Of a DNA stretch of 64,000 nt, positions 1-35,011 are shown one piece after another. Below the pieces are notes generated by a model, which was not told where the DNA came from, searched no databases, and worked only from the letters and a program-made list of their open reading frames with translations. Source of the DNA: Malacoraja senta (taxonomy: Eukaryota); NCBI GenBank assembly GCA_038087875.1, contig CM075988.1, forward strand, positions 23,748,001 through 23,812,000. The letters run 5' to 3'. Made by a program: the position numbers and the translations under genes. The number at the start of each line of letters is the position of its first letter. Position 1 is the first letter of the stretch.

Positions 1-32
1 CTATTGTCATGTGGACCGAGGTACAGTGAAAA

Positions 33-582
33 TAGACAATAGACAATAGGTGCAGGAGTAGGCCATTTGGTCCTTCGAGCCAGCACCGCCATTCAATGTG
101 ATCATGGCTGATCATCCCCAATCAGTACCCCGTTCCTGCCTTCTCCCCATATCCCCTGACTCCGCCATCTTTAAGAGCCCTATCTAGCTCTCTCTTGAAA
201 GCATCCAGAGAACCTGCCTCCTCCGCCCTCTGAGGCAGAGAATTCCACAGACTCACCACTCTCTGTGAGAAAAAGTGTTTCCTCGTCTCCGTTCTAAATG
301 GCTTACTCCTTATTCTTAAACTGTGGCCCCTGGTTCTGGACTCCCCCAACATCGGGAACACGTTTCCTGCCTCTAGCGTGTCCAAACCCTTAACAATCTT
401 ATATGTTTCAAAGAGACACCCTCTCATCCTTCTAAACTCCAGAGTGTACAAGCCCAGCTGCTCCATTCTCTCAGCATATGACAGTCCCGCCATCCCGGGA
501 ATTAACCTTGTAAACCTACGCTGCACTCCCTCAATAGCAAGAATGTCCTTCCTCAAATTAGGGGACCAAAACTGCACACAAA
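33..582 (-). mobile_element. CR1-clade LINE 3' fragment, young high-copy family. Near-identical copies at ~1277-1500, 20965-21212, 21648-22180, 27447-27926, 30017-30305, 33210-33495, 40160-40578, 42840-43202, 44767-45180, 48020-48245, 53378-53950, 62527-62680
   Basis: ORF2 C-terminus QFWSP...[14 protein letters not shown]...HFFSQRVVSLWNSLP...FKRELD, 5'-truncated, with a (CTATTGT)n tail. Confidence 0.93.
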
Positions 583-599
583 AGCTCTTGTTGCGCCCT

Positions 600-855
600 C
601 AGAACAAGCATCCTTTGTGTGCCTCTTGTCACCTCCCCCCCCCCCCCCCAGCCAACAATGAACCATTCTACATTGCCTTGATCATCGTCTACTTTGATCT
701 GTCGTTTTTACACCTTACCCATCCATATCTCTAGTTTCCCTCTCCCCTGACTCTCGGTCTGAAGAAGGGTCTCCACCCGAAACGTCACCCGTTCCTTCTC
801 TCCACAGACGCTGCCCGACCCGATGAGTTACTCAAGCATTTTGTGTCTATCTTTG
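600..855 (+). mobile_element. Penelope-like element 3' terminal repeat with hammerhead-like core
   Basis: CTGAAGA-stem-GAAACGTC at 759-786, followed by the GCTGCC...GAGTTACTC...TTTTGTGTCTA terminus shared by dozens of copies. Confidence 0.7.
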
Positions 856-1861: not shown

Positions 1862-2704
1862 GTGGGAGGAATCCGAAGATCTCGGAGAAAACCCACGCAG
1901 GTCACGGGGGAGAACGTACAAACTCCGTACAGACAGCACCCGTAGTCGGGATCGAACCCGGGTCTCCGGAGCTGCATTCGCTGTAAGGCAGCAACTCTAC
2001 CGCTGCGCCACCGTGACCGCCCTGGTAAGCGTTTTATCATTTTAAAATGATAAAACACTTGCCACCTCCCATACCTGCATCTCAGGGGCCTCCACCTGAC
2101 TAGTGCGATCGACAGCGGGTCCCATAACGGCCCAAACAGCCACTTCACAACCCACAACCCACAGAACTGAAGTGAAAGCAAGTTGTCCACGAGCTGAGCA
2201 GAGGTAAATGGGCCATTCTAGCATTAGAGCCATCGAATCATAGAGTGATACAGTGTGGAAACAGGCCCATCGACCCAACTTGCCCACACCGGCCAACAAT
2301 GTCCCACCTACTCTAGTCCCACCCGCCTGCGCTTGGTCCATATCCCTCCAAACCTGTCCTATCCATGTACTAGTACACTGTAAAACACATGCACGATTGC
2401 AACGTGTTAAAAGGAACTGCAGATGCTGGTTTAAACCAAAGATAGACACAAAAGGCTGGAGTAACTCAGCGGGTCAGACAGCATCTCTGGAGAAAAGGAA
2501 TGGGTGACGTTTCGGGTCGGAACTCTTCTTCAGACTCATTTCCCATTTCGAGTGTGGGGACCCAACACAGACAGTGGAGTACAGAGTCACCAGTTGCCCC
2601 AAACTCCGGCCACTGAATGGTGAACGAGGTGTGATTGACCTGGACGATGACACGTTGGCCTGGCTCGCCTCAACGGAGCTGCAGGTCTGAAAGACATACG
2701 ACAG
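1862..2704 (+). repeat. ~840-bp near-identical direct duplication of 4759-5599
   Basis: The same SINE, unique segment, CR1 and Penelope mosaic occurs twice with only scattered substitutions. Confidence 0.93.
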
Positions 2705-5700
2705 CGAAATCTGAGGTGCTGTTCCTCCAATTTACCTTTCACTTAAAATGATTTTAGTTTTTTTCCATCCGAACTTTGCTCACTTTCCTCCTTTAAGTCC
2801 AAACATCTCATAAACTCTTTTTAAAATTTCACGGCATCTACTCAAACCCAGTCCTGTACAGAATCAACCTTCCAGCCTTGCTGGGGCCTTCACCTTCGAC
2901 TAGGAGGATGCCATTTGGCCTCCCACCACTTAACAAAATTCATGGTCGTTCTCGGTCAGTTTTGTCCGACATACATTAAGAGCTTTGATTGAGATAAATT
3001 CATCAACGGCTTCTTGCAGGTCAATTCTAAACAGGACCACACCTGCCAAGGTGGAAGTCCAATCGTCAGTTTTGCCTTTTATTCTGTACCATTTATCTGA
3101 GGATGGATGTGCTGGCGGTGGGGAGGGTCCTGAGGAGGTTTACAAGAATAATCCTGCTGATGATGGGAGTTGATATACGAGGAGCGTTTGATGACACTGG
3201 GCCTGTACTCGCTGGAGTTTAGAAAGATGAAGGGGAGATGTCATTGAAACCTCCTGGATAATGAATGGGCATGGAGAGGATGTTGCCGTTACTGGGAGAA
3301 TCTAGGACCAGAGGAAACAGCCTCAGAATAAAAGGACGTACCTTCAGAATAGAGATGAGGAAGAATTTCTTCAGCTAGAGGGTGGTGAATCTGTGGAATT
3401 TATTATCACAGATGGCTTTGGAGGCCAAGTCATTGGGCATTTTTAAAGCGGAGATTGATAGATTCTGGATTAGTAAGAGTGTCAAAGGTTACGGGTAGAA
3501 GGCAGGAGAAGTGGGTTGAGAGGGAATAATAGATCAGTCATGATCGAATGGTGGAGCAGAGGATGGGCCGAATGGCCTAATTGTGCTCTTATGTCTTATA
3601 ACCTTGTGAAATCTTTCCATCCAATCCTGTGCCAAATAATCCATGTGCCATAAACCAAAGCAGTTGAGGCCAAGTCAATGGATATTTTTAAGGCGGAGAT
3701 TGACAGTCTAGATTAGTACGGGTGTCAGGGGTTACGGGGAGAAGGCAGGAGAATGGGGTTGAGAGGGAGAGATAGAGCAGCCATGGTGGAGTAGACTCGA
3801 TGGGCCGAATGGCCTAATTCTGCTCCTATCACTTATGATCTTTGGCCAATCCAACATCTACACAATGTGGCTGTGACATGATTGGCCAAGTCACCCCAAC
3901 CCTTCTCAATGGCCTTTGCATGAAATAGCCAATGAATGTTCTTCTCAGCCCCTATCTCCTCTCCCCCTCCCCCTCACCCCCCCCATTACCACCCAGCTGA
4001 ATATCTGCTACATTTCACACACTGCCGATCATGCATCTTGTCTGCTTGTGTTTTGAGTCAGTTTCCGTGTCATTTATAGATGCCCGCAGTCGATGGCATT
4101 GTTTTGAACATGCATGATGATCACTGGTGTGTGTGTGTGGTCCAACATGGAGGTAGGATGCAATGTAACATCTGTTGGTTCAGGAACTCATCTCCGAACT
4201 CAGACTCACGTCTGGCACACGCCCCGAATATCTTTACTTTTCACGCACTCTTGACCATGCGGTTTGTCCACTTCTGTTTTTAAATCAGCTTGTGGGCATT
4301 GATAGTAAAAAACATACAAATATATATATTGAAAACACCCAGCAGCTCAGGCAGCAAATGTGGGAGGGGAACCAAGCAAGGGTTAGCATGCCTACCAAGA
4401 TGCTCCAAAGATAGACACAAAATGCTGGAAATTGCCTGGAGATGAGAGGAAATTCTTAACGGATGTTCTGGGAACATCCTTGCCTCACTCACCAGTTTGC
4501 AAATGTTTTTGTCTCATTCCCGCTCCAAATGAAGGAGCAGTGGCCCGGGTGGCACCGGGACCCAGGAATCTCTGTCAAGAGCAAACAGAAGCCCAGTGAA
4601 AATTTTAGTTTAGAGATACAGCACGGAAACAGGCCCTTCGGCCCACCGGGCCCGCGCTGACCAGCGATCTCCACACATTAACGCTATCCTACACCCACTA
4701 GGGACAATTTTTACCTTTACCAAGCCAATTAACCTACAAACCTGTACGTCTTTGGAGTGTGGGAGGAATCCGAAGATCTCGGAGAAAACCCACGCAGGTC
4801 ACGGGGAGACGTACAAACTCCGTACAGACAGCACCCGTAGTCGGGATCGAACCTGGGTCTCCGGAGCTGCATTCGCTGTAAGGCAGCAACTCTACCGCTG
4901 CGCCGCCGTGACCGCCCTGGTAAGCGTTTTATCATTTTTAAATGATAAAACACTTGCCACCTCCCATACCTGCATCTCAGGGGCCTCCACCTGACTAGTG
5001 CGATCGACAGCGGGTCCCATAACGGCCCAAACAGCCACCTCACAACCCACAACCCACAGAACTGAAGTGAAAGCAAGTTGTGCACGAGCTGAGCAGAGGT
5101 ACATGGGCCATTCTAGCATTAGAGCCATCGAATCATAGAGTGATACAGTGTGGAAACAGGCCCATCGACCCAACTTGCCCACACCGGCCAACAATGTCCC
5201 ACCTACTCTAGTCCCACCTGCCTGCGCTTGGTCCATATCCCTCCAAACCTGTCCTATCCATGTACTAGTACACTGTAAGACACATGCACGATTGCAACGT
5301 GTTAAAAGGAACCGCAGATGCTGGTTTAAACCAAAGATAGACACAAAATGCTGGAGTAACTCAGCGGGTCAGACAGCATCTCTGGAGAAAAGGAATGGGT
5401 GACGTTTCGGGTCGGAACTCTTCTTCAGACTCATTTCCCATTTCGAGTGTGGGGACCCAACACAGACAGTGGAGTACAGAGTCACCAGTTGCCCCAAACT
5501 CCGGCCACCGAATGGTGAACGAGGTGTGATTGACCTGGACGATGACACGTTGGCCTGGCTCGCCTCAACGGAGCTGCAGGTCTAAAAGACATACGACAGA
5601 AGAAGAAGACTCATTTCTCAATTCAGACGAAAGAGTCCGAAGAAGGGTCTCGGCACGGAACATCACCCATTCCTTCTCTCCTGCAATGCTGTCTGACCCG

Positions 5701-8700
5701 CAGGGTTACTCCGGCACTTTGTGCCTATCTTCTGCAGGATTACAATGCCGGATAGCAGATTGTAAAAGATTCACAGCCTATCGTTGCAAGAAAAAATAAT
5801 AAACCTTTGAAGTTCTGATGCTAATCAAAACAAAGGAAGTAGTGGGGAACAAAGTGGATGAATTCTGTAGCTGCTATCTCATGCCTTCCCTCCCCCATTG
5901 ATGTTCTCTGTTGCAGCACACGAGCATGGTTCAGTTTTCACTCACCACCCGTGTCAGATCTGATTAGACAACGCGAAGCTAATCCCACAATTGATCAGCA
6001 CGTCTGTAGTGAGTGGTAACTCAAGATCTTGATTTCAGATGAGAAACCTGAATGACTCAGATACCTTAACATGACCTTTAGATGGGTCGGGGCAGAGGCA
6101 ACACGTTCGGCATTAAATCCGGGACAGGCGCTGTTCCCGGCTCAGGGGATGGGCAAGGTTCTGACACCCCACTCTGGGAAAATGCAAACGCACGTCTCAT
6201 CTCACACCAGAGTGGCAAATCCAGGAAGACTGCGTGAAACAACAGGAAACAAATTGGGAGATCTAGGCCGTGTAGGAAGGAACTGCAGATGCTGGTTTAC
6301 ACAGAAACATAGAAAATAGGTGCAGGAGTAGGCCAATCGGCCCTTCCAACCATTCAATATGATCCTTCTGAACCTTCTGAATCTTGAAGTCGGCAGGGCA
6401 GTACTCTGCATATCGCCAACTTGGACAATTTTACATTTTATCAAGCCAATTAAACAACCCAATTAACCTACAAACCTGCACGTCTTTGGAGTGTGGGAGG
6501 AAACCGAAGTTCTCGGAGAAAACCCACGCAGGTCACGGGGAGAACGTACGTACAAACTCCGTACAGACAGCGCCCGTAGTCGGGATCGAACCGGGGTCTC
6601 CGGCGCTGCATTTTGCCGTAAGGCAGCAACTCTACCGCTGCGCCACCGTGACTGCCCTCATGGCTGATCTTCCAAAATCAGTACCCCCGTTCCATTCTCC
6701 CCATATCCCCTTGATTCCATTAGCCCCAAGAGTTAAATCTAACTCTCTCTTGAAAACATCCAGTAAACTGGCCTCCACTGCCTTCTGTGGCAGAGAATTC
6801 CACAGATTCACAACTCTCTGGGTACCTTTGAACCAAAGACAGACACAAAAAGCTGGAGGAACTCAGCGGGTCAGGCAGCATCTCTGGAGAAAAGGAATGG
6901 GTGACATTTCGGGTCGAGACCCTTCTTCAGCCCAATTTTTATCCTTGGACTAATTTCACTGGGGAAGAACATTTGGTTAGACACCATTTCCGTTTGTGTA
7001 CAAAATGGCACATTCCTAACATTAACCTCACAAAGCACATTATTGGTCCCGATGTACCGAGAGCCACACTTGTGCTTTGGAAGCACAAACTCCCTGCCTG
7101 CTGTGGGCTCACTCACTAGAGAGAGTTAGATATAGTTCCCAAGGAATCAAGGGATATGGGGAGAAAGCAGGAACGGGGTACTGATTCTGGATGATCAGCC
7201 ATGATCATATTGAATGGCTGTGCTGGCTCGAAGGGCTGAATGGCCTCCACCTGCATTTTCTATGTTTCTATGTCTATGTTTCTGTGAGACACTTGTGGCC
7301 TGGATCATCGACATTGACCTCGACTCCAATGACTTATGAAGAGCGAGTTATTTAAAGTTGGGAACTCGATAGAGACAAGAAGGCTACAACGTGCCCAGTT
7401 GGAAGATAAGGTGCAGATCAGTGTTGTAGCAGTGCAGGGGGGGGGGGGGGGGGGCATAGAGAGTGTGGGAGTGGGCCGGTGACTTAAAGTGGCAGGCAAC
7501 CAGAACTCAGGGTTACTCACTCCTGCAGAGCTGCCCTGAAAATCTATTTGGGTGCTGTCTGTACGGAGTTTGTACGTGCTGCCCGTAACCAGTGTGGGTT
7601 TTCTCCGGGTGCTCCGGTTTCCCCCCACACTCCAAAGCCGTACAGGTTTGTAGGTTAATTGGCTTGGTATAATTGTAAATTGTCCCTCGTGTGTGTGTGT
7701 AGGATAATGCAAGTGTGTGGGGATCGCAAGTGAATTGCTGTTTCACCCGGGAATATTAATCTTGCAGGGAATTGAAACAAAGTTTAATGAGATTCATGAG
7801 ATAAAGCGATTGTCCTAAACGAGAGAGATTGTGCATACAAAGTCTGTATTTTCTAAAATGGGTGCTGGCAAGATGATTTCCCTGATGAGGGGTTGGTCAC
7901 TTGCATCAGTAATAAAGATCTTTTTAATATACAAGGTAGGCAAAAATGCTGGAGGAACTCAGCGGGTGAGGCAGCATCTATGGAGCGAAGGAATAGGTGA
8001 CGTTTCGGGTCGAGAACCGGAAAGCATCTATGGAGCGAAGGAATAGGCGACGTTTCGGGTCGAGACCCGGAAGGGTCTCGACCCGAAACGTCACCTATTC
8101 CTTCCCTCCATAGATGCTGCCTCACCCGCTGAGTTCCTCCAGCATTTTTGTCTACCTTCGATTTTTCCAGCATCTGCAGTTCTTTCTTTAAAAAAATTTT
8201 AATATACAAAAAATGGACTCTTTAGTTATTCTCTCCTTTGCAAAGGCTCTGGTGGTTGGTAGTTGAATATATTCAAGTCAGAGTGTACTAGGTGTTTCAA
8301 CATTAAGATTCAAGAGAGTTTATTGTCATGTGTCCCAGATAGGACAATGACATTCTTGCCTTGCTACATTAAGGAGATGACTTGAGGAATAGGGGCAGCG
8401 TTTACGAGTGTGAAGTCGAGCTAGATTATCGACCATGAAATTATTGAACGGCAGCAACTAGATAGCGGTCCTGAGCTCCCATTTATCTCATTGGAGACCC
8501 CCTGACTATCTTTAACCAGCACTAAACATTATTCCCTTAATCCTGTATCTGTACAGTGTGGACGGCTTGATTGTAATCATGTGTAAGAAGGAACTGCAGA
8601 TGCTGGTTTACACCGAGGATGGACACCAAATGTTGGAATAACTCAGCGGGACAGGCAGCATCTCTGGGGAAAAGAAATAGGTGACGTTTCGGGTTGAGAC

Positions 8701-10094
8701 CCGTCATCATGTTTAGTCTTTCCACTGACTGGATAGCACACGACAACAAAAGAGCATTTCACTGGACCTCGGTACATGTGAGGCTAATAAACGGAACTAA
8801 AACAGATGGTCACCTCCCAAATCCAAGACTCAGCCACCAAGAGCAGCAGGAAGACATGGGCAGGTTTCCTTCCAAGTCGCACACCATCTTGACTTGGGTT
8901 GAAGCCTGGGACTCATTCCTGAACCATGTAGTGAAAGTACCTTCACCTGTGGTTCAAAATGGAGGCTCACCATTTCTCATGGGCAATTAACAATGGGCAT
9001 TCGATTAAAAAAAAAGAGAAACTATTTTGTTTGTTGGGAGAGTTCAGGAAGTCAAAATCTCAGTTAGGACACATTGGTGATAAGAACTTCCTTGAAACTT
9101 TTTGAATAAGAACATAACTCCTTTTCTCATTGCAATCAATACCTGTTGCTGAATGATCCAAACTCTCAAGTGGTGGATAATGTTCACCATTCCAGCTTCC
9201 TTCCACCTCTCTAACTAAAGCAGGAACAGTTGGAAAAGATCATCAACCTGACCTATAGACACAAAAAGCTGGAGTAACCCAGCGGGTCAGGCAGCATCTC
9301 TGGAGAAGAGGAATAGGTGACCTTTTCGGGTCGAGACCTTTCTTCAGTCAGAGTTACTCCAGCTTTTTGTGTCTATCTTTGGTTTCAACCAGCATCGGCA
9401 GTTCCTTCCCACACATCAACCTGACCCAGTCATTCATATTTCTCTCTCCACCGATGCTGCCTAACCTGTCGAGTGGCTCAACCACTTTCTGCCTTTGTTT
9501 TAGATGGCCGGTGGTATTTTCTTTAGGATCGATGTATTATGAGAAGATGAGAAGTACAAGAGTCAAAAACAAAATCTCTGCTCTGAGCGGTGGAACCAAA
9601 TAGATAAATCTCTCCCCCACCTGCATCCCTGCAGTGACTCAGACTGTGCCCTGTGGGTAGCAACTGCCCACAATGACTCATTTCCCAGCACCAAGGTTGC
9701 TGACACCCATAACACCCTTAATGTCAGTGGAAGGAACAATAATGTAGGCTCAAATGTAGTCGAAACACACTTACAATCTGTAAATGATTGAATAATTAAG
9801 ACATCAAAAGATAATAACTCCATGCACGCACTAATTATTCTTAAAGGGAATGCAGGCCTTCAATAACTTAACACAGAGTAGGCTGATTAATAAGATCAGG
9901 ACCTTTACAATCAAAGTGCACCACGCCAACTAAAGAGACGCAAAACTGAAACCAGAGTAGGAGTTGACCATAATTACTTTGACCGTAAGTGTTGTTGGTG
10001 AAGTTCCACTGCTGGGTGCATGAATTGCTTCATTCATTCAAAGGCTCCATTATTAAGCATGAGGTTTTGGTGTGCAAAAGGCAATAGTTAAATG

Positions 10095-10456
10095 GAAGAT
10101 AGACACAAAAAGCTGGAGTAACTCAGCGGGACAGGCAGCGTCTCTGGAGAGAAGGAATGGGTGACGTTTCGGGTTGAGAAGTCTGTAGAAGGGTCTCGAC
10201 CCGAAACGTCACCTATTCCTTCTGAAGTCTGAAGAAGGGTTTCGGCCCAAAACGTTGCCTATTTCCTTCGCTCCATAGATGCTGCTGCACCCGCTGAGTT
10301 TCTCCAGCACTTTTGTCTACCTTCGATTTTCCAGCATCGGCAGTTCCTTCTTAAACACCCATTCCTTCTCTCCAGAGATGCTGCCTGTCCCGCTGAGTTA
10401 CTCTAGCTTTTTGTGTCTATCTTCGGTTTAAACCAGCATCTGCAGTTCCTTCCTGC
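10095..10456. mobile_element. Palindromic (inverted) Penelope-derived element with a nested second copy. Similar structures at 7934-8187, 11826-12002, 22740-22958, 28915-29160, 32418-32658, 54636-54822, 55775-55927, 55973-56148
   Basis: Arms of ~90-130 bp that are reverse complements of each other, meeting at GGGTCTCGACCC. Confidence 0.75.
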
Positions 10457-11329
10457 ACAGTTAAATGGAAGTTGTGGAAAATGGGAATTGGTTAATATAG
10501 TGTTCCAATAATTTGTAGATTAGAACGGAGAAATGGGGGGGGGGGGGGGGGGGGGGGAGGGTCAGATATGTAAGTAAACTATAGAAGTAACAAAAGCAAG
10601 TCACTGGGACTATCATTTAACAGGATTGTATTACAGGTTGTATTGAATTTGTGTTGGGGTTACACAGAATGGCGAGAAGATCCGGAAAATATTTTAGGAC
10701 GAATCAGGAAAAAATTGAAAGGGATGGGACCACCAAAAAAAATCTTCAGGGTGATCTTTTAGACTTTTGGGTTTAGAGATATAGCACGGAAACAAGCCCT
10801 TCGGCCTAACAAGTCCGTGCCAACCAGCGATCTCCCCTTATATCCACACACACACACTATCCTACATCCTAGAGACAATTTTACAACTTTACCAAAAACA
10901 ATTAACCTACAAACCCACGTGTCATTGGAATGTGGGAGAAAACCGGAGCATCCAGAGAAAACCAACGCGGTCACTGCGAGAACGTACAAACTCCGTACAG
11001 ACAGCACCCGTAGTCAGATTTGATAGAAGTCTTCCAAGTTACAAAAGAGCTTCACTGTATTCTTGCCGCAAAGATGTTTCCACTTGTTCAGGAAAACAAT
11101 CACAGAGTGATAAATACGACAGTCACAGTGAAGTCCAATTAGGAATCACTCACACCTTCCCCAGAGAAACCATTCACCTACTCCAGATCAACGGGGTGGC
11201 TGCGGGAAGATTCACAAACTCAACCCATGCCCATCTCCTTGTGAGAAACACAGAATATTCCTCATTTTGGTGCCCAGGTCACCTCTGTCCACATTGAGTG
11301 TGCCTTGGTTTACACTCTCCGCTCCACCA

Positions 11330-12172
11330 GCCTCCCCCATTCATCACACCATCCCATACAATTCCCACTTACTTTAACAATATTCCATTAGCAGACATAC
11401 CTTCCCCTCCCCTTCACTTTCCTCATTCTGAGGGGACTGTTCCTTTCATCACTCTTCACCCAAGATGCAACTCCCATTCCTTGAAAGCATCCCAACCCAC
11501 CATCCAAACATTCATGTCGGGACAAGCAGTCATTGATTCGCCTGTCCTCTGATCTCGTGTATTGCTGATGAAGTGGTCTCCACCACGTTGGAGGAGTTGA
11601 TCGCAGATCGGGGTCACCACTTTGTGGAGTGCCCCCGTTCAGTCTGCCAGGTGTGGTGTGTCCTGAGTTACAGTGTCATAAACTCATAGAGTGATACAGC
11701 ATGGAAACAGGCTCTTCGGCCCAACGTTCCCACACTGGCCAACATGTCACGGCTACACTAGTCCCACCTGCCTGCGTTTGGTCCATATCCCTCCAAACCT
11801 GTCCTAGCCATGTACCTGGTGGACCAAAATGCTGGAGAAACTCAGCGGGTGCAGCAGCCTATGGAGCGAAGGAAATAGGCAACGTTTCGGCTTGAAAAGT
11901 TGCCTATTTCCTTGGCTCCATAGATGCTGCTGCACCCGCTGAGTTTCTCCAGCACTTTTGTCTACCTTCGATTTTCCAGCATCTGCAGTTCCTTCTTAAA
12001 CACAAGCCATGTACCTGTGTGCTTCTTAAACGTTAAGCTTCCAGTTTCCCAGTGTTAATTCTGCATCAAACTCCCTCTCTCTGCTCTTCTATCAACTCCT
12101 GCGCCGTTACAAGATGGTCCAATGTACGCTTGAGGAACAACGATACATTTTCCCTCAGGAAATGCTGTGGGC
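11330..12172 (+). mobile_element. Degenerate Penelope-like GIY-YIG endonuclease remnant, interrupted by younger insertions
   Basis: Decayed motifs SSDLVYC...GLHHVG...FVECPRSV (11545-11645) and LEEQRYIF (12129-12152) resemble Penelope SNLVYCI...LLYIGET...FAEHLRSV...KLEEQHLIF. A KLEEQHLRF scrap also lies on the minus strand near 2706-2734. Confidence 0.6.
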
Positions 12173-15350: not shown

Positions 15351-15721
15351 TTAGAAGGGCATGTTGGCAGCGTTTCCCGGCCCAGGTACAAAGGTGATGG
15401 GCGTATCTAAGGACATGCTCCTCTGTCTTAACTGCTGGGGGAACATCATACTTTGGTGGGGTGGCGCAGCTAGAACGCCCACCTGAGGGGGCAGCATGTG
15501 TCCCCCCTGCCCGTACATCTCCCCCGAGAGGGAGAGGCTCCTCTGCTTGGCTTGGAGCATCATGTTCTGTTGGGCCATCAAGCTCTGCTGCGGAGACATG
15601 AGGACCTGGTGCAGGCTGTTGGTCATCACGCCGTGTTGGCCCGGCATGCCTGTCCTTGCCATCATGGGCCCCGGCACCTGCCCCGGGTGGAATATGTGCA
15701 TGCTCAGGCCCCTCTGCACCA

Positions 15722-15756
<35 letters not shown>

Positions 15757-16525
15757 CCGGCGAGGCTGGGTCGGCCGGGAGCACCCTGCTCCAGCATCAT
15801 GCTGTGAAGGTTCATGAGGTGAGGGTTGGAAGACGGGGCTTTGGGCACCTGCGGTTCTCCTTTGGGGAAGTACTGCAGCGTGCTGCTGGGCCTCTCCGAG
15901 GGAATGATGCGCGACAGGTTGAACTCGGGGATGCCGCTGGCCGACGGCCGGATCACGTCCTGAAGCTCGGGGTCGTTGAGGACCGAGGCCACTCCCGAGA
16001 GCTGGTAGCCTTCGGCCACCGAGCGGACCGACACGCCCTTGGTCATCAGGTGCGGAGGCGGGGGAGGCGGAGGCTGCTGCTGCTGCTGCTGCTGCTGCTG
16101 GGAGGGAGCCGGTCCGGTGGGCACGCCGTGCGGGGGGACCCCGTCATCGTGGGACATGGCCATCCCAGGAGGGTAGACCTGCTGCATCCCGGAGCCCGGG
16201 GACTGCAGGGGGTTGTGGGGCTGGTGCTGCATCCGCTGGAGGACCATGGGATTCTGAGGTAGCATCTGGGAGCCGCCGCCGCTCAGCGGTCCCAGCGAGT
16301 CCTGGGACGGGTGCACCATCATGGGGCTCTGCACCCCCATGCCGGGTCCGTGGCCCTCGTGCATGCCGATGCTGGGGCCCATCATGCCCGGCGACGGCAT
16401 CATGGACGGCGGGGGTTCGTGGGACAGGGGCTGCCCCACCATCCCCATCGCCAGGGGGCTGTTGGCTGATCCTGGCCCCACCACACTCTGAGACACCAGG
16501 TGCTGCTGTGGGTTCTGGCTCATTC
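15351..16525 (-). CDS. BCL9L: BCL9L last coding exon
   Basis: TTGCAG acceptor, phase 1. Contains VLNDPELQDVIRPSASGIPEFNLSRIIPSERPSSTLQYFPK and ends NMPF-TAA, as in the BCL9 family. Confidence 0.95.
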
Positions 16526-16789
16526 CTGCAAGGCAACCGAAAAGGAAGTTATAAAAATGTCCCACTCCCCTCGCCAGCCATCTTAAATCCAATGTACACG
16601 ACTAACAGGCCCCGCCACAACTTATAGGAACCCAGATGAAATTGAACAAGACATTATGACAGGTGACTAGATACTTAATCAGGTTGATCGAAGCATCATC
16701 AAGAGAGTCATGAGTGTTTTTATTGTCATGTGTCCCAGATAGAACAATGACACTCTTACTTGCTGCGGCACAACAGAATGTGTGATCAC

Positions 16790-18174: not shown

Positions 18175-18434
18175 ACACACACAGTGACCAACATTGGGGT
18201 ACAGGTCCACATACAGTGACCAACATTGGGGTACAGGTCCACACACAGTGACCAACATTGGGGTACAGGTCCACACACAGTGACCAACATTGGGGTACAG
18301 GTCCACATACAGTGACCAACATTGGGGTACAGGTCCACACACAGCGACCAACATTGGGGTACAGTTCCACACACGCACACCAACCAACACTGGGGTAAAG
18401 TCCCACAGGTACCGCCCAACACTGGGGTACAGTT
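18175..18434. repeat. 32-bp minisatellite, ~8 copies degenerating rightwards
   Basis: ACAGTGACCAACATTGGGGTACAGGTCCACAY at 18181, 18213, 18245, etc. Confidence 0.95.
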
Positions 18435-19334: not shown

Positions 19335-19616
19335 CCCTAGACACAAAAGGCTGGAGTAACTCACCGGGTCAGGCAGCATCTCTGGAGAAAAGGAATAGGT
19401 GACGTTTCGGGTCGATACCCTTCTTCAGACACAACCCGACCCAAATCGTCACCTATTCCTGGTCACCAGAGATGCTACCAGTCGGTCGGAAGGGAGAGTG
19501 GACGCTGGCGCGGTTTGGCTGCCGCTGCTCTCCCTTCACATTGTGTTTCTGAATTTGTTTGTTGTCTTTTTTGGATCGAATTTCTGTCTTTAATTTGTGT
19601 ATTTGTGATGTCTTTA

Positions 19617-20196
19617 AGGCTCTGTCTCACGGTGTTGCGGTCATCGGCGGTGAAGCGCGGCGTCGCCGGTAGAGGGGACCGCACGGCAACGGCGAGAGTG
19701 CCGAGCCTATGCCACGGGAGCGCCGCACGGGTGCTGCGCGGGGGCCGAGTGATTAAGTACGGCTGGTCCCACGAGCTTGCGGTAAGTTAAAAAAAAAAGG
19801 GCGGGCCGACTGTGATGACGTCATTTCGGATCTGCGGGGCTGTGGCGGCGGCCGTGCCGCACACGTGCCTCACTGGCGGAGGCTGTGGCGGCAGTCGTGC
19901 CTCACTGGCGGAGGCTGTGGCAGTGCAAGTTCGACGCACGGCGCTCGTGCCTCACTGGCGGAGGCTGTGGCGGTGCAAGTTCGACGCACGGCGCTCGTGC
20001 CTCACTGGCGGAGGCTGTGCAGTAGGAAAAGTTTTTTGAACAGTGTTGGTTTTATTTTAGCACCGTGCGGTGTTGGGAACAACGCCGCACGGCCCCGGAA
20101 TTGTGTGTTTGACCGAGTGCACGGTCTATGGCGGCCCAGGAGCGGTAGATTCTTCCTGTTTCGCCGCCAATGACCGCAGACTCGTGAGACAGGCCT
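19617..20196 (+). mobile_element. GC-rich MITE with internal tandem repeats; second copy at ~47029-47509
   Basis: TIRs GGCTCTGTCTCACG..TGCGGTCATCGGCG / CGCCAATGACCGCA..CGTGAGACAGGCC; internal GTGCCTCACTGGCGGAGGCTGTGGCGG units. Confidence 0.8.
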
Positions 20197-23189
20197 TTTA
20201 TAACTTATTTTACTCTGATTATATGTTTCTTTGTTAAATTTTGTACGGTGTCCTTGAGACTTTTATATAGGCGCCCTTAAATAAAATCTATTATTATTAT
20301 TATTATTATTACCCGACCCTCTGAGTTACTCCAGCTTTTTGTGCCTATCTTCGGTTTAAAGCAGCATCTGCACATTCTCTACCCCCTACCTTTAAACCTG
20401 TGCTGCCCTCTACACACTATGTTAAACAATGCCCTCTACTTTCAGAGATCACCGCCATGGGTTAACGTTTCATACCATCTAGGCCCTTTTCTGCCCCTCA
20501 TAGTTTAGTCAATCAGGTGCCCCTCAGCCTCCTCCACTCAAGAAAAACAAACACCATCTCTCCAGTGTCTCTTCCAATGAAATGCCCCCATCGCAGTCAC
20601 AGTCCAGTGAGCTTCGTCTGCATCTTCCGCAACACTGTTGTATTCTTCCAAAACTGCATGGTATTGCAACTCTGGCCCAACCCAACGTTTAATAAATTAT
20701 ACTCTAACCTCCCTCCTCTTGTAACCTATGCCTGCAAGCACCGCCAACACCTCCGGACACAATGGTGGCACAGTGGCACAGCGGTAGAGTTGCTGCCTTG
20801 CAGCGCCAGAGACCCGGGTTCGATCCCGTCTACGGGCGCTGTCTGTATTGAGTTTGTACGTTCTCCCCGTGACCGCGTGGGTTTTTCCCGAGATCTTCGG
20901 TTTCCTCCGACACTCCAAAGACGTACAAGCGTAAATTGTCCCTAGTGTGTGAAGGATATGTGTGGTGAGTCTGTGGAATTCTCACAGAGAGTGGTGAGTC
21001 TGTGGAATTCTCTGCTTCAGAGGGCAGTGGAGGCATGTTCTCTGGATGCTTTCAAGAGAGAGCTAGATAGGGCTCTTAAAAATAGCGGAGTCAGGGGATA
21101 TGGGGAGAAGGCAGGAACGGGGTACTGATTGGGGATGATCAGCCATGATCACATTGAATGGCGGTGCTGGCTCGAAGGGCTGAATGGCCTACACCTGCAC
21201 CTATTGTCTATTGATATGGCGAATGTGTGGGGATCGCTGGTCGGTGCGGGATGGGTGGGCCGAAGGGCGCTGTATCTCTAAGCAGAGTGTTGGAGGAACT
21301 CAGCGGGCCAGGCAGCATCTCGGGAGAAGATGGATAGGTGACGTCTCGGGTTGGGACCCCTCTGAATGTTCGTGGTTGAGAGCCTGAAGGATTATGAATA
21401 AGTTTACTGTGGAAACCGATCTGAAAAGCTGATGATGCACAGCCCCAGCACCAAGGCTGCAGGGTGAACCGCAGGCTTAGACCGTGGCTGGGGGCACCCT
21501 CTAGTGGGAAGAGCTGCAAACTGACCACAACTTGTGATCAAAACACAAACTCAGCAACCTCTGACTATCTGATAGCAGTAGTGTGGCCATGCCCCTGATA
21601 GTCGCGTGAATCATCTCCACCCTCACTGGACAGTAGATAAACCACTATCTGATTTGAGGAAGGACATTCTTGCTATTGAGGGAGTGCAGCGTAGGTTTAC
21701 AAGGTTAATTCCCGGGATGGCGGGACTGTCATATGCTGAGAGAATGGAGCAGCTGGGCTTGTACACTCTGGAGTTTAGAAGGATGAGAGGCGATCTCATT
21801 AAAACATATAAGATTGTTAAGGGTTTGGACACGCTAGAGGCAGGAAACATGTTCCCGATGTTGGGGGAGTCCAGAACCAGGGGCCACAAACTTTAAGAAT
21901 AAGGGGTAAGCTATTATGAACAGAGACGAGGAAACACTTTTTCTCACAGAGAGTTGTGAGTCTGTGGAATTCTCTGTCTCAGAGGGCGGTGGAGGCAGGT
22001 TCTCTGGATACTTTCAAGAGAGAGCTAGATAGGGCTCTTAAAAATAGCGGAGTCAGGGGATATGGGGAGAAGGCAGGAACGGGGTACTGATTGGGGATGA
22101 TCAGCCAGGATCACATTGAATGGCGGTGCTGGCTCAAAGGGCCGAATGGCCTACTCCTGCACCTATTGTCTATTGTCTATTTATTGATAACGTTAAAGAC
22201 TTTAGAGATACAGCCATTCGGCCCACACCGAGTCCACGCCGGCCAGCGACCACCCCGCACACAAGCAATATCCTGCGCACTACATACAGGGGGCTGACCT
22301 GTACGTCTTTGGAGGGTGGTAGGAAACCTGAGCACCCGGGGAAAACCCACGTGGTCCCAGAGAGAAAGTACAAACTCCGTACAAACAATACCTGTAGTGA
22401 AGATGGAGCCCGGGGTCTCTGGTGCTGTAACTCTGCGACTCTACCCTTGTGCCCCTTGTGCCGTCGTCTCTTTGATTTATTTCTATTAGTTGGGGCACTT
22501 TAAAATTACTTTAAATTCACACACCGACGCATGTAAAAGATAAGCTTTAATTTATAAAAATGCCTTCCAATGTGCATGGTACATGCCCCACAATATTAAT
22601 TAGTACGGCTGTCAGGGGTTATGGCAGGAGAGTGGGGTTGAGAGAGAAAGATAGATCAGCCATGAGAAAACTTGATGGGCCGAATGGCCTAATTCTGCTC
22701 CTATAAACCTATCAACTTATGAACACACAAGCTAGGCTAATGGAACTCAGCGGGTGAGGCTGCATCTCTGGAGAGAAGGATTGGGCGACGTTTCGGGTCG
22801 AGACCCTGGAAGGGTCTCGACCCGAAACGTCGCCCATTCCTTCCAGGGTCTCCACCCAAAACATCGCCCATTCCTTCTCTCCAGAGACGCTGCCTCGCCC
22901 GCTGAGTTACTCCAGCATTTTGTGTCTACCTTCGGTTTAAACCAGCATTCTTTCTTGCACACTAGGCTACTGGAATCTAGCCTGATTAAGGAGTAACTTA
23001 ATTCATGGCTTCGAGTTTTTTTTTGCAGAAACTCGTCAAGCGGATGGTGAGAAACTGTAAGCCCGGGCAAGAGTCTTGGGGGCAATGGAACAGAACATTC
23101 CTCTATAGTGCGGAAAACCAGAGGCACAACTGTAAACGGATTTGATCGCGCGGCCTCTTCTCAAACTAGGATCAATGAACACGAGATAG

Positions 23190-23448: not shown

Positions 23449-24380
23449 AATAAGATAAATGACTTTAACCAGAAAGAGGTGGGATTGCGGAAATGCCCGT
23501 TTGTAATCAGTAACTGCCCTGCAGAGCAGAGGGTGGCGTTGACGGATAAACAACACGTGGCAAGCGGTGCGATGTAACGCGCGCTGCACCCACCCTGCTG
23601 ATGTGGCTGGCACAACATGTCAGGCAGCACCCGCACAGACCTTTCAGCCCATTGAGTCCATGCTCAACACGACCGTCAACAAACACAAATCCCATTTTAT
23701 TCACCTCCTCCCAGCATCTACATCCCACCCAAAAAACTGGGGGGGGGGGGGCAACTAATAGTGGGCAACCGACCGAGCAAAACACATCTTTTGGATGTGG
23801 GGAGGGGGAAACTAGTGCACCCATAGGGTGGTCACATGGAGAACATGCAAACTCCACACAGACTGCAATTGAGAACAGGATTGAACCTAGGTCACCAGAG
23901 ATGTGAGGCAGCAGCTCGATTAGCTGCCGTTCCTGGTGTCTGTAGTGAGTTAATGGGCCTTTCCCACTGTACGAGCTAATTCAAGAGTTCTCCCGAGTTT
24001 CCCCTGATTCGAACTCGGAGATTTACGGTAATGGCCGCTCGTAGGTACTCGGGGCTCTCGTGGACATTTTTCAACATGTTGAAAAATCTTCACGAGTCTT
24101 CACAAGCTTTTCCGAGCGTTTCCCGAGTGCCTGCCGTTAGCGTCACGAGCCGCTAAGAGACGTCCCCGAGCTCCGACGTACCCCTATGTACGTTCTGCGT
24201 GCTTACCACGAGTTTGATTTTTTTTTTATAAACTCGGGAGAGCTCTTGGGTAAACTCGTACAGTGGGACATGCATTGAGAGCAAACGGTTCGGTACAAAT
24301 GTATAAATGCTGCAAGGTTTGATGGCTGGGTCGGGCAGACTACCGAGTGATGAGTGTAAACACTCTGCTCCTTTTCTCAC

Positions 24381-26697: not shown

Positions 26698-26764
26698 CTG
26701 AGGATGAGAGGAGGGAGAGAAGAGAAGTGAGATGGGTGGAGGGCACGGCATCACGTTATAGTTT

Positions 26765-27185: not shown

Positions 27186-29576
27186 CAGTTGCAGGGCAGT
27201 CTGAACCACTAAATACAATTACGAGAAACATGGAGATACTAGCGGCATTGATAAGGTGGACAGTCAGAATGTATTTCCCCAGGCTGGAAATGTCCAACAT
27301 TAGACGGCATAGCTATAGAGGTGGGAGGGGTAATGTTTATACCCCATGCAAGGCCAAATTAGGGAAAGTATGGGAAGCAAGTATGGGAAATAGGGTTCCC
27401 TCCAAACCGCTTTCCCTGCATCTCATAGAAGTCATAGAAAATGTCTTTACAAGGTTAATTCCCGGGATGGCGGGACTGTCATATGCTGAGAGAATGGAGC
27501 AGCTGGTCTTGTACACTCTGGAGTTTAGAAGGATGAGAGGGGATCTTATTGAAACATATAAGATTGTTAAGGGCTTGGACACGCTAGAGGCAGGAAACAT
27601 GTTCCCGATATTGGGGAGTCCAGAACCAGGGGCCACAGTTTAAGAATAAGGAGTAAGTCATTTAGAACGGAGACGAGGAAACACTTTTTCTCACAGAGGG
27701 TGGTGAGTCTGTGGAATTCTCTGCCTCAGAGGGCGGTGGAGGCAGGTTCTCTGGATGCGTTCAAGAGAGAGCTGGATAGGGCTCTTAAAGATAGCGTAGT
27801 CAGGGAATATGGGGAGAAGGCAGGAACGGGATACTGATTGGGGATGATCAGCCATGATCATATTGAATGGCGATGCTGGCTCGAAGGGCCGAATGGCCTA
27901 CTCCTGCACCCATTGTCTATTGTCTATAAAATAGGTGCAGGAGGAGACCATTCGGCCCTTCGAGCCAGCACCGGCATTCATTGTGATCATGGCTGATCAT
28001 CCACAATCTGCAACCCGTGCCTGCCTTCTCCCCATTCCCTTGATTCCACTAGCCCCTAGAGCTCTATCTAACTCTCTTTTAAATTCATCCAGTGAATTGG
28101 CCTCCACTGCCCTCTGTGGCAGAGAATTCCACAGATTCACAACTCTCTGGGTGAAAACGTTTTTTTCTCATCCCACTTTTAAACGGCCTCCCATTTATTC
28201 TTAAGACTGTGGCCCCCTGGTTCTGGACTCGCCCAACATTGGGAACATTTTTCCTGCATCTAACTTGTTCAGTCCTTTTGTAATTTTATACGTTTCTATA
28301 AGATCCCCCCTCATCCTTCTAAATTCCAGTGTATACAAGCCCAGTCTTTCCAACCTTTCCTCATATGACAGTCCCGCCAACCCGGGGATTAACCTCGTGA
28401 ACCTACGCTGCTCTGCCTCAAGAGCAAGGATGTCCTTCCTTGGATCTCATCTCCACCCACCTCGATCTAATTAAACGGGGGGGGGAGTGAGTTGGAAACT
28501 TGCGGTACCTGTGTCCAACGTTAACTTGAATGGTTATCACCGCAGGTCCAACCCCGATTTTCCACAACCCTTGGGCAGGGCATTTCTGGATTATCCAATT
28601 TGCTGGAACAACAGAGGTCAACGGCCTCCGAGAGGAGTCCCAACGGTACCGGAACGTTCCGCCTGGGCCGAGATACCGGCTGGCAAAGTCGGCCGTGGGA
28701 ACGTGGGAACGTATCTGCCGGAGTTCCAGAGTGCCGGCCGCAGGGGGGGCAAATTCCAGCCGCCGATCGGCCGCGGAAGTCCCGGTGAGGCCTCGCCCGG
28801 CCTAGGTGCCACACTATCAATGGAATGTGTGTGCGGTTTTTCGGTTGGGGGATGGAATTCAAGTAACTTTGCCCAGCTTAAGGGAAGCGCCGTGCCATCA
28901 GTTGCTGGGAGACGAAAATGGTGGAGAAACTCAGCGGGTGAGGCAGCATCTATGGAGTGAAGGAATAGGCGACGTTACGGGTCGAGACCCGGAAGGGTCT
29001 CGTCCCGAAACGTCGCCTATTCCTTCGCTCCATAGATGCTTTCGGGGTCTCGACCCGCAACACCACCTATTCCTTCGCTCCATAAATGCTGCCTCACCCC
29101 CTGAGTTTCTCCAGCATTTTTGTCCACCGTCGATTTTTCCAGCATCTGCAGTTCCTTCTTAAAGCCCTGTCCCACGGTACGAGTTCATTCCAAGAGCTCT
29201 CCCGAGTTTGCCCTGATTCGAACTCGGAGATTTACGGTAATGGCCGCTCGTCGGTACTCGGGGGGGTCTCGTGGACATTTCTCAACATGTTGAAAAATCT
29301 TCACGAGTCTTCCCGTGCTTACCTGCCGTTAGCGAGTCTTCCCGAGCACCTGCCGTTAGCCGCTAAGAGACGTCCCCGAGCTCCGACGTACCCGCTACGT
29401 TCATTCTCCGTGCTTACCATTTTAAACTCGGGAGAGCTCTTGGAATGAACTCGTACCGTGGGACGGGGGCTTTTAAACAAAAATCGGTGGTGGAACCTGT
29501 ATTTGAACTGTGAGGGGTTGACATGCAGAGCTGAAGTGCTGCATAGAGTGAGGTTGCTCTGGGATTTTGGACTCAC

Positions 29577-31537: not shown

Positions 31538-34185
31538 CTGCGCCAGAGATTGGGGGAAAAAAAAAGTCAAGAGAGTCAATCCCACCCTTGGCGTTCCTCG
31601 CGGGCCGCTCCTTCCCCGTTCGATCTCGACGTCACCCCCACCCCCCTCTGGACTTGACCCCCTGGAACCACCGCACGAGGCAAGGAACGGCTGAAGGAAG
31701 CAGGAAGCAGAAGGTGATGTGCGGGAAGGAACTGAGGTACAGGATACTGAGTTGGATGATCAGCCATGATCACATTGAATGGCGGTGCAGGCTCGAAGGG
31801 CCGAATGGCCTACTCCTGCACCTATTGTCTATGTTTCTATGTTTCTATGAACTGCAGACGGTGAGACACACAAAATGCTGGAGTAACTCAGCGGGTCAGG
31901 CAGCATCTCTGGAGAGAAGGAATGGGTGACGTTTCGGGGTTTGAGCCCCTTCTTCAGACTGTTTGGTGTATGGGGTAAACAGGGAGGTAGGAGCAGGAGA
32001 GGGGGGGGGGGGCGGGGTTGACCACAATAACGAACCAAGGTATGCTAATATCGCAGTTTAAGAATAAGAGGCAGGCCATTTAGGACTTTTTCACCCAGAG
32101 AGTTGTGAATCTGCGGAATTCTCTGCCACAGAAGGCAGTGGAGGCCGATTCACTGGATGTTTTCAAGAGAGAGTTCGATTTAGCTCTCAGGGATAAAGGA
32201 ATCAAGGGATACGGGGAGAAAGCAGGAACGGGGTACTGATTGTGGATGATCAGCCATGATCATATTGGATGGCGGTGCTGGCACGAAGGGCCGAACGGCC
32301 TACTCCTCCACCTATTGTCTATGTTTCTAATGTAGTCCTTCATTGTAACATGTAGTCAAGGGCAACACTGGTTCAGGATTACATCAGCCAATGTAAATGA
32401 AATAGAATAAGTAGCGGTGTTTAGGAAGGAACTGCAGATGCTGGAAAAATCGAAGGTAGACAAAAATGCTGGAGGAACTCAGCGGGTGAGGCAGCATCTG
32501 TGGAGCGAAGGAATAGGTGACGTTTCGGGTCGAGACCCGGAAAGCATCTATGGAGCGAAGGAATAGGCGACGTTTCGGGTCGAGACCCTTCCGGGTCTCG
32601 ACCCGAAACGTCACCTATTCCTTCGCTCCATAGATGCTGCCTCACCCGCTGAGTTTCTGGGTAAACGGAGGGACAGTAGGCTGGGACAAAGGGAGGGGAG
32701 GGGATAGGGTAGTAGCGGAGAAGATGTCATGGAAGATAACTCCCAAAAAGTAGGCCGGGATGGGCGGCATCTCCGGAGAGAAGGAATGGGTGATGTTTCG
32801 GGTCGAGAACCTGCACAGCCTGCTTTAAAGATTTTCTTTAAGAGTCTCCGATACAGTGAATGGCCACCAGATGGCGGTACAGACTGGGGCTCGCCAAACA
32901 TTAAACGCCCCCCACTTTCATCCTGTATCTGTGTGCAGTGTGGACGGCTCGTCTGTAAACATATACAGTCTTCCCGCTGACTGGAAAGCGCGCAACAACA
33001 AAAAGCTTTCACTGTACCTCGGTGACACGTGACGATAAACTAAAATAAAATAATGCTGGGGATGTAGACAGATTGATACAGCGTGGAAACAGGCCCTTCG
33101 GCCCCAACTTGCCCACACCGACCATCTACTCTATTGACCCACATCTACGCATTTGACCCACATCCCTCTGTCTACATACGTAACTGTCTGAATGCTTCTA
33201 AGTTACCATAATAGGCAATAGACAACGGGTGCAGGAGTAGGCCATTCAGCCCTTCGAGCCAGCACCGTCATTCAATGTGATCATGGCTGATCATCCCGTC
33301 AGTACCCCGTTCCTGCCTTCTCCTCATATCCCCATGACTCCGCTATCTTTAAAAGCCCTATCTTGCTCTCTCTTGAAAGTATCCAGAGAACCGGCCTCCA
33401 CCGTCCCTCTGAGGCAGAGAATTCCACAGACTCACCACTCTCTGTGTGAAAAAGTGTTTCCTCGTCTCCGTTCTAAACGGGTTACTCCTTATTCTGAATT
33501 GTACCATTCCACACGGTACAAAAACTATCTTCGGCTGGAAACATTTCCTTAAAAATACATCGCGGGCCCTCAGGGTTTGTGCCACCAAACACACGTCCCG
33601 CCAAGACCGCTGGAAACATTAGGTGCCCCAAAATAAATCTTTCTGGGGTCGGAATCAATGGAAAATCTCAAAATTAAGACTGACATTTTTTGGGCGGCTG
33701 GAACACGACGAGACTCGGAGCAAAGCAGAGAAACAGAACAGAGACAAATGTGGACTCTGGTCCAACTCCTGATTAGTTTTACCCTTTGTATGCCTCTGTG
33801 TCTCCTCCCCCTCACCCAACAATGAACTTCCTTGGTCTGCTTTGATCTGTCCTTTTCTCACCTCACATGCTCTTTGTACTATTTCATGCCTCTAGTTCCC
33901 CCCTCTCCCCTGACTCTCAGTCTGAAGAAGGGTCTCGACCCGAGGGTTCTCTCCAGCGATGCTGCCTGTCCCGCTGAGTTTCTCCAGCATTTTGTGTTCG
34001 TAAATTCATAAGCGATAGGAGAAGAATTAGGACATTCGGACCATCAAGTCTACTCTGCAATTCAATCATGGCTGATCTATCTCTCCCTCCTAACCCCATT
34101 CTCCTGCCTTATCCCCATAATCCCTGACACTAATCAAGAATCTGTTTATCTCTGCCTTAAACATATCAATTGACTTGGCCTCCAC

Positions 34186-34578: not shown

Positions 34579-35011
34579 GCCTCCACAGCCTGGTGTGACA
34601 GTGAATTCCACAGATTCACCACCCTCTGACTAAAGAAATTCCCCCTCATCTCCTTCTCCTTCTTAATTGTGAGGCTGTGACCTCTGGTCCTAGACTCTCC
34701 CACGTGGAAAAATCCACTCTACCCAGTGTGTAGTTCACTGGTATACACTGAAGTTAAGACACTGGAGTAACTCAGCGGGACAGGCAGCATCTCTGGAGAG
34801 ATGGAACGGGTGACGTTTCGCGCCGAGACCCTTCTTCAGACTCATCCACTCTATCCGGGCCTTTCACTATTCGGTAAGCATCTATCTATAGTCTAACTAA
34901 ACATTGGCGAGTAATTAATGGAAGATTTGAGTTGTTTGCTAACTTGAACACTGGTTCCTAAGTGAATGTTTTCCACAAGGTGTTCACCGACTCTGTCCGT
35001 GGGTTACTTAC

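What the first reader, a model, noticed from the sequence alone, without database searches (positions are those of the whole stretch)
756..790. Minimal type-I hammerhead ribozyme core in a high-copy Penelope-derived short element
Seen: GGT-CTGAAGA-A-GGGT-ctcc-ACCC-GAAAC-GTC-ACC. This gives CUGANGA, stem II, GAAA, a GUC cleavage triplet and a 3-bp GGU/ACC stem I, with essentially no intramolecular stem III. Intact cores recur on the minus strand at 2506-2533, 19401-19428 and 31928-31957. Point-mutated cores lie near 5636, 6900, 10182, 10229, 33920, 34811, 47594, 52380, 53117 and 54727. Established: Penelope-like elements carry minimal type-I hammerheads proposed to cleave as dimers, and an extra A between A9 and G10.1 is a known natural variant. 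Inference: this genome hosts a very abundant non-autonomous, retrozyme-like family mobilised by Penelope machinery. I do not know whether it has been characterised in skates.
Basis: partly seen in the sequence, partly recalled or inferred. Interest (0 to 1): 0.72.

Follow-up and report, generated by a model that had tools for sequence, protein, structure and literature searches.

The report
Minimal hammerhead in Penelope end fragments
The motif is a real minimal self-cutting-RNA (hammerhead) core of a kind already known from Penelope-like jumping genes, sitting in one of about forty short, decaying end pieces of such an element scattered through this stretch, and it is probably inactive here.

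Summary
The core at 759-786 is real: 7 exact cores in the window, 0 in 100 shuffles. It heads a ~100-135 bp repeat with 61 segments at 41 loci, 8% of the window. No covariation was found. The insertions look like Penelope-like element (PLE) insertions: 12 of 40 loci are head-to-head, 5 of these 12 carry 9-13 bp target duplications, and 10 of 12 have a ~33-nt tail on one arm only. No RT or GIY-YIG gene was found, so PLE membership rests on structure. 'Retrozyme-like' is not supported: there are no tandem arrays, and 5' ends show no excess at the cleavage site (p=0.46). They stop sharply at the ribozyme's 5' edge instead (loose ends in 4 of 4 runs). A three-part palindromic unit lacking half the core recurs three times. 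The kind was described in 2014 (PMC4209133), and this scan has noted the same on other shark genomes.

The parts
612..853 (+). solo, tail-less fragment of the repeat: ~144 bp upstream pseudo-LTR-like part plus unit positions +1..+98; no target-site duplication
   Evidence: homology to the 33783 copy starts at 612; no adjacent TSD >=8
730..755 (+). pyrimidine tract ending in the family TCAG (here TCGG); resembles both an initiator and a 3' splice acceptor
   Evidence: sequence; 756 G>A in 89-94% of depth
756..758 (+). 5' strand of stem I; +1 of the unit and the place where most copies begin; third pair is private to this copy
759..766 (+). CUGANGA box (C3-A9) plus the extra A between A9 and G10.1
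767..778 (+). stem II, 4 bp, 4-nt loop
   Evidence: 85.5% of cells paired across 19 copies
779..786 (+). GAAA box, loop-less palindromic ACGU (stem III only possible between two molecules), GUC triplet; putative cut after 786
   Evidence: cleavage itself not tested
787..853 (+). 3' body of the unit up to the first 3' end cluster (+88..+101)
   Evidence: loose ends at 853/855 continue into the tail
2404..2536 (-). solo copy +1..+133 with tail; locally duplicated at 5299-5431
7933..8188 (.). three-part palindromic unit lacking CUGA, tail on one arm, 13-bp TSD
9255..9414 (.). inverted insertion, tail on one arm, 13-bp TSD
10088..10458 (.). complex inverted plus tandem insertion with TSD; one inner unit begins at the cleavage site (+31/32)
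11825..12001 (.). head-to-head insertion, tail on one arm, 13-bp TSD
19338..19479 (.). inverted insertion with an intact core (19401-19428, minus strand) in a BCL9 intron, sense to the gene
28915..29161 (.). second three-part palindromic unit lacking CUGA
31868..31961 (-). solo copy with an intact core (31928-31957)
32419..32658 (.). third three-part palindromic unit lacking CUGA
33783..33997 (+). second long copy with the upstream part; deletion through the GAAA box
34738..34842 (-). solo copy beginning at +1, flanked by a 13-bp duplication with one mismatch, which fixes +1 as a true insertion boundary
54630..54823 (.). head-to-head pair folded back exactly at the +1 TCAG/CTGA quasi-palindrome
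55974..56159 (.). head-to-head insertion centred near the cleavage site, tail on one arm, TSD

Best explanation
This is the minimal type-I hammerhead carried in the pseudo-LTR of an endonuclease-bearing Penelope-like retroelement. The 612-853 locus is one decayed solo fragment of that repeat. Model: (1, inferred from the anole PLE work) the element's RT binds RNA containing the terminal repeat and starts copying internally at one of two sites, about +98 or about +133, giving tail-less or tailed copies. (2, shown as a pattern; cause inferred) copying passes straight through the uncut hammerhead and stops at about +1. My estimate for what +1 is: a transcript start at the initiator-like TCAGTC 45%; fold-back or template switching at the local palindromes 25%; related to a 3' splice site 20%; other 10%. 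(3, shown as a pattern) many cDNAs fold back and insert head-to-head with 9-13 bp target duplications. (4, inferred) in the parent element the hammerhead can cut only as a dimer through the ACGU palindrome, probably with protein help. Cutting is not needed for insertion, and the scattered copies are inert.
For: Core 7 vs 0 in 100 shuffles. The extra A, G10.1-C11.1 and palindromic 15.2-16.2 match the PLE min-HHR definition. Inverted loci 12 of 40; adjacent exact TSD of 9-13 bp in 5 of 12 inverted loci vs 0 of 25 solos and 9 of 1000 mismatched-flank controls at >=8 bp; tail on one arm in 10 of 12, on both in 0 of 12. This is the PLE pattern in PMC8557442 and PMC3846280. Outer 3' ends: 22 of 52 at +88..101, 14 at +122..133, 6 between, 10 shorter, as with the two RT start sites in PMC11167929. 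5' termination rate 0.145 per nt at -5..+5 vs 0.008 at +13..80 (p 7e-16), and 0.012 at the cleavage site +-3 (p 0.46). Loose ends pile at 756-757 with unrelated flanks (agreement 0.31-0.38) in 4 of 4 runs from four coded organisms. PMC11167929 reports that hammerhead mutants insert normally and that cleavage needs the protein.
Against: No RT or GIY-YIG sequence is linked to this family: 0 such hits in 294 of 369 stop-free pieces scanned, and a protein search with the unit's open frame was blank. The Pfam scan is insensitive, since two LINE-like coding remnants also scored nothing. The hammerhead fold is not the predicted minimum: stem I pair probability 0.0, stem II 0.02-0.4. No covariation (1 both-sided change in 133 cells). 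The 5' wall is partly inflated because the upstream reference is a single copy, so divergent subfamily upstreams (31961, 47859, 41017) would look truncated. Two loci were joined or split by hand after the TSDs were seen; before that, 6 of 41 loci had >=8 bp vs 7 of 400 controls.
Confidence: 0.8

Rival explanations
1. Short copies are themselves templates: a self-propagating non-autonomous mini-PLE family (SINE/MITE-like), transcribed from +1 or as passengers and moved by a PLE protein. At least one subfamily has dropped the ribozyme. This is compatible with the best explanation's origin and differs in where the daughters come from.
For: The same three-part palindromic unit, with the same 4-nt junctions and the same G/A pattern at +32 in inner vs last unit, occurs at 7933, 28915 and 32419. 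Its inner junction looks like an earlier fold-back junction read on the other strand. One locus per ~1.6 kb with no coding remnant seen. Non-autonomous PLE derivatives exist in algae (PMC8557442).
Against: All three composite loci carry the tail. In the anole PLE, RT needs ~55 nt of RNA beyond its start site, so the master probably continues past +133, as a full element with a rearranged end would. Only 3 loci in one window.
Confidence: 0.35
2. A retrozyme-like family: tandem units are cut by their hammerheads, circularised and re-inserted by PLE RT.
For: Type-I core; 3 of 40 loci are short tandems; one inner unit begins at the cut site (10356) and one fold-back centres near it (56072). One contig joint going back 845->757 in run X20. 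A 2026 preprint finds retrozymes in one chondrichthyan and ties them to pLTRs.
Against: No array of complete units. No excess of ends at the cut site (3 events, p 0.46). Units run +1..+98/133, not cut-to-cut. The ribozyme is minimal rather than canonical, and the unit shows no unusual self-pairing (z -0.5).
Confidence: 0.1
3. Not a ribozyme: the likeness is accidental, and the repeat belongs to another class (MITE of a DNA transposon, or a LINE end).
For: No Rfam hammerhead hit; no covariation; stem I only 2 bp; palindromic units resemble MITEs.
Against: All catalytic positions plus three descriptor-independent PLE features are present. Asymmetric tail, two 3' end clusters and variable TSD lengths fit PLEs, not cut-and-paste elements. 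A 2-bp helix I is described for the D. virilis element.
Confidence: 0.05

Closest known systems
Minimal hammerheads (min-HHR) in pLTRs of metazoan Penelope-like elements (PMC4209133, parts 1-2 of 4 read; dimer cleavage in Lunse et al. seen only as cited in review PMC6765202)
   Same: Type-I core, no helix III, palindromic 15.2-16.2, extra nucleotide between 9 and 10.1, G10.1-C11.1; mostly single dispersed motifs; pairs on opposite strands close together.
   Different: Helix II is 4 bp (7-8 bp in the schistosome families) and helix I only 2 bp (4-5 bp typical; 2 bp in D. virilis). No flanked ORF seen here. No shark or skate named in the 2 supplement files searched.
Insertion anatomy of EN+ PLEs: inverted 5'-truncated copy, 30-40 bp tail at one end, TSD (PMC8557442, PMC3846280; passages)
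   Same: Head-to-head arms, ~33-nt tail on one arm only, 9-13 bp TSD, palindromes at the junction, solo pLTRs.
   Different: Here nearly all insertions are under 260 bp and stop at one place (+1) rather than at scattered truncation points.
PAc, Poseidon element of Anolis (PMC11167929, parts 1-2 of 4 read)
   Same: Two 3' end clusters that bracket the tail; no ends at the hammerhead cut site.
   Different: The PAc ORF starts in stem II. Here that position reads AAG in 28 of 31 copies and no ORF link was found.
Non-LTR retrozymes (PMC7229834 passages; bioRxiv 10.64898/2026.07.22.740005 parts 1-3 of 5)
   Same: Non-coding, type-I hammerhead, related to PLE terminal repeats.
   Different: Those are head-to-tail arrays of cut-to-cut units with circular RNAs. 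These are solo or head-to-head, and their ends ignore the cut site.

Membership tests
PLE minimal type-I hammerhead | CUGANGA, GAAA and NUH core in type-I order with helix II | tested here: met
PLE minimal type-I hammerhead | extra nucleotide between 9 and 10.1; G10.1-C11.1; palindromic 15.2-16.2 with no loop 3 | tested here: met
   (G-C in 15 of 19 copies)
PLE minimal type-I hammerhead | helix I of several base pairs | tested here: inconclusive
   family has 2 bp; third pair in 4 of 19 copies; no longer helix predicted; 2 bp is reported for D. virilis
PLE minimal type-I hammerhead | covariation in helices across family members | tested here: inconclusive
   1 both-sided change, 167 of 500 shuffles reach it; copies are ~88% identical decaying daughters, so the test has little power
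PLE minimal type-I hammerhead | self-cleavage as a dimer | not testable with these tools
   needs a bench assay
EN+ Penelope-like element | RT plus GIY-YIG ORF flanked by the repeat | tested here: inconclusive
   none in 294 of 369 pieces or by protein search; no genome held
EN+ Penelope-like element | inverted 5'-truncated arms with a 30-40 bp tail at one end | tested here: met
   10 of 12 inverted loci
EN+ Penelope-like element | target-site duplications of about 8-14 bp | tested here: met
   5 of 12 inverted loci vs 9 of 1000 controls; one solo with 12 of 13 matching
Non-LTR retrozyme | head-to-tail tandem units, each with a complete hammerhead | tested here: not met
Non-LTR retrozyme | unit boundaries set by the cleavage site | tested here: not met
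   p 0.46
Non-LTR retrozyme | abundant circular RNA | not testable with these tools
   only assembled contigs were available

The most novel reading that the evidence does not exclude
In this lineage the PLE machinery mass-produces ultra-short insertions whose two ends record the template in vivo: a fixed RNA 5' end exactly at the hammerhead's 5' edge (an initiator-like TCAGTC) and two internal RT start sites. Some of these mini-copies have become a self-propagating palindromic, MITE-like retroelement that has lost half of the ribozyme. The genome would then hold a very large natural record of PLE start sites, and show that the hammerhead is dispensable for mobility in vivo.
Probability: 0.3. 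Interest if true: 0.55.

Novelty: new member of a known kind. Interest (0 to 1): 0.27.

Why it matters
The motif itself adds one more family to a class described in 2014. The value lies in the end statistics. The role of the PLE hammerhead is still open (PMC8557442, PMC11167929). Here the 5' ends of 60 genomic segments show no excess at the cut site, which agrees with the in vitro result that uncut RNA is the template. The sharp +1 boundary gives a testable prediction for the element's transcript start. For annotation, a repeat filling 8% of this window would be mis-scored as miRNA-like hairpins.

Tried and rejected
Rfam scans: no hammerhead family at E<=5 on the window or E<=10 on 700-860, only miRNA-model hits on fold-back copies. 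No whole genome is held. A 31-nt motif found 0 loci in the metagenome, viral and prokaryote collections. A 20-nt motif gave 8 metagenome loci, all without further homology and judged chance. Run search: no RNA holder listed. The three 'RNA?' runs laid are guesses and contigs, so they say nothing on expression, strand or cleavage, and their depth was not used as copy number. No shared exon-like sequence upstream of +1 and no GT..AG joint among the listed joints (15 shown, 36 not shown), so a spliced template is unsupported but not excluded. The open frame through the unit found no protein relative (weak evidence). A downstream-promoter-element reading of the ACGT motif was set aside: by eye it matches 5 of 8 letters of the consensus in PMC2377424, and its expected position is recalled, not checked. 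TCAKTY occurs at 0.1% of positions, but only three of its letters are free of the ribozyme constraint, so the initiator match is suggestive only. A flip-flop hairpin reading of the composite unit was dropped: the central loop has the same orientation to the tail in all three loci. Literature searches. None listed a paper describing this family in a skate or ray; Repbase and Dfam could not be searched. Lunse et al. is not held; one search returned an unrelated paper. Not seen and possibly bearing on novelty: the supplements of the 2026 preprint (which list its chondrichthyan families) and file 1 of the PMC4209133 supplement.

Full report
Setting. The window holds a BCL9 gene on the minus strand (Pfam BCL9, E 1e-14; long frames at 38541-39023, 24340-26775 and 15351-16601). 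The finding lies about 14.6 kb beyond the last long frame, on the opposite strand. That the host is a shark, skate or ray is my recollection from the SINE and LINE content; no call named the organism. No whole genome is held.

Observation. The pattern occurs 7 times in the window and never in 100 shuffles. It heads a repeat with 61 segments at 41 loci, 8% of the window; segments over 60 nt average 88% identity to the window consensus. Numbering 756 as +1, the cut would follow +31. Two details are private to this copy. Position 756 is A in 89-94% of summed contig depth in 4 of 4 runs, and the third stem I pair forms in 4 of 19 aligned copies, so the family stem I is 2 bp. The loop is CUCG in the family. 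Only 3 of 21 copies spanning the core keep boxes, stem II and palindrome. Stem pairs show one both-sided change in 133 cells, no more than shuffles. That is expected of neutrally decaying daughters and neither supports nor refutes function. Folding does not favour the hammerhead, and Rfam does not detect it.

What it is. After dropping one local duplicate, joining one pair of loci and splitting one by hand, there are 40 loci: 25 solo, 12 head-to-head, 3 short tandems. Five of the 12 inverted loci have adjacent exact duplications of 9-13 bp, against 0 of 25 solos and 9 of 1000 controls at 8 bp or more. The unedited count was 6 of 41 vs 7 of 400 with a looser search. Ten of 12 carry the ~33-nt tail on one arm and none on both. 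Outer 3' ends fall in two groups: 22 of 52 at +88..101 and 14 at +122..133, with 6 between and 10 shorter. This is the insertion anatomy described for endonuclease-bearing PLEs (PMC8557442 and PMC3846280, passages). In the anole element the tail lies between two internal RT start sites (PMC11167929). The motif has the three features that PMC4209133 lists as emerging beyond its descriptor. The direct link is missing: no RT or GIY-YIG in 294 of 369 stop-free pieces (insensitive, as two LINE-like remnants also scored nothing), no protein relative of the unit's open frame, and no homologous locus in the collections on hand. I could not check it, and a sequence look-up did not tie it to this family.

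How it works. 5' ends are not scattered. The termination rate is 0.008 per nt over +13..80 and 0.145 per nt over -5..+5 (60 segments, p 7e-16; p 4e-14 with the 12 composite-locus segments removed). At the cut site +-3 it is 0.012, no excess (p 0.46). Contigs of four runs from four coded organisms give their largest listed 5' loose-end pile at 757, with unrelated flanks, and one solo copy starting at +1 has a 13-bp duplication with one mismatch. So the template is copied through an uncut hammerhead and ends at its 5' edge. A caveat: my upstream reference is one copy, so divergent upstreams would be counted as ends. +1 is the A of TCAGTC, which fits initiator consensus (recalled) and also follows a pyrimidine tract like a 3' splice site. 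The D. virilis intron ends at the same place relative to helix I, but no shared upstream exon was seen here. I favour a transcript start (45%). Cleavage, if any, would need two molecules pairing through ACGU, a duplex of only -3.1 kcal/mol, and probably protein, as in the anole element. Intact-box cores sit sense to BCL9 inside its introns (19401, 31928, 34812), which is consistent with little cleavage in host pre-mRNA (inference).

Non-autonomous? Three loci (7933, 28915, 32419) share a three-part palindromic unit that starts at +9/+12, lacks CUGA, and has identical junctions. They descend from one rearranged master without a working ribozyme. Whether that master is a free mini-element or the end of a full element cannot be told, as all three carry the tail. 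The retrozyme label fails on two defining features, tandem complete units and ends at the cut site.

Novelty. Minimal hammerheads in PLE repeats, widespread as single motifs, have been known since 2014. Penelope-like elements are reported as expanded in whale shark introns (10.1101/443036, two passages), and a 2026 preprint includes one chondrichthyan. My searches listed no description of this family or of the sharp +1 boundary, but Repbase, Dfam, Lunse et al. and the preprint's supplements were not seen. Verdict: real, a new member of a known kind, most likely inert at this locus. Interest 0.27; the bolder reading has probability 0.3 and interest 0.55.

Noticed in passing
window 15351-39023 (-): BCL9 coding exons; Pfam BCL9 hit in the 24340-26775 frame; introns packed with repeats.
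   Followed up: partly
window 1862-2704 and 4759-5599: Local direct duplication of ~840 bp, 98.6% identical, next to an assembly gap (1662-1861); could be recent or an assembly artefact.
   Followed up: partly
window 7933-8188, 28915-29161, 32419-32658: Recurrent three-part palindromic unit with a 50-bp internal duplication, lacking the first half of the hammerhead; a related 34-bp version at 22744-22948.
   Followed up: partly
window 10356: An inner unit begins at the predicted cleavage site directly after a tail; a single case, within chance.
   Followed up: yes
window 41017-41100, 47767-47859, 59497-59569: Divergent copies that look like an older subfamily; a matching variant appears among loose ends at 789 in runs X1 and X23. 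Copies at 41017 and 43467 read ATG at the start of stem II, as the anole element does.
   Followed up: partly
window 27900-27950 and other fold-back hits (e.g. 39331-39563, 41775-42001): Head-to-head pairs also occur among other repeats (LINE-end pieces near 27898/27948); these give spurious miRNA-model hits.
   Followed up: no
window 36876-37242, 47193-47336, 19843-20023, 18176-18434: GC-rich minisatellites with 83, 32, 50 and 32 bp units.
   Followed up: no
window 767-778: Family stem II is almost self-complementary; a two-molecule duplex is predicted at -19.7 kcal/mol against -4.8 for one hairpin, so it could drive pairing of two RNAs or fold-back of cDNA.
   Followed up: partly
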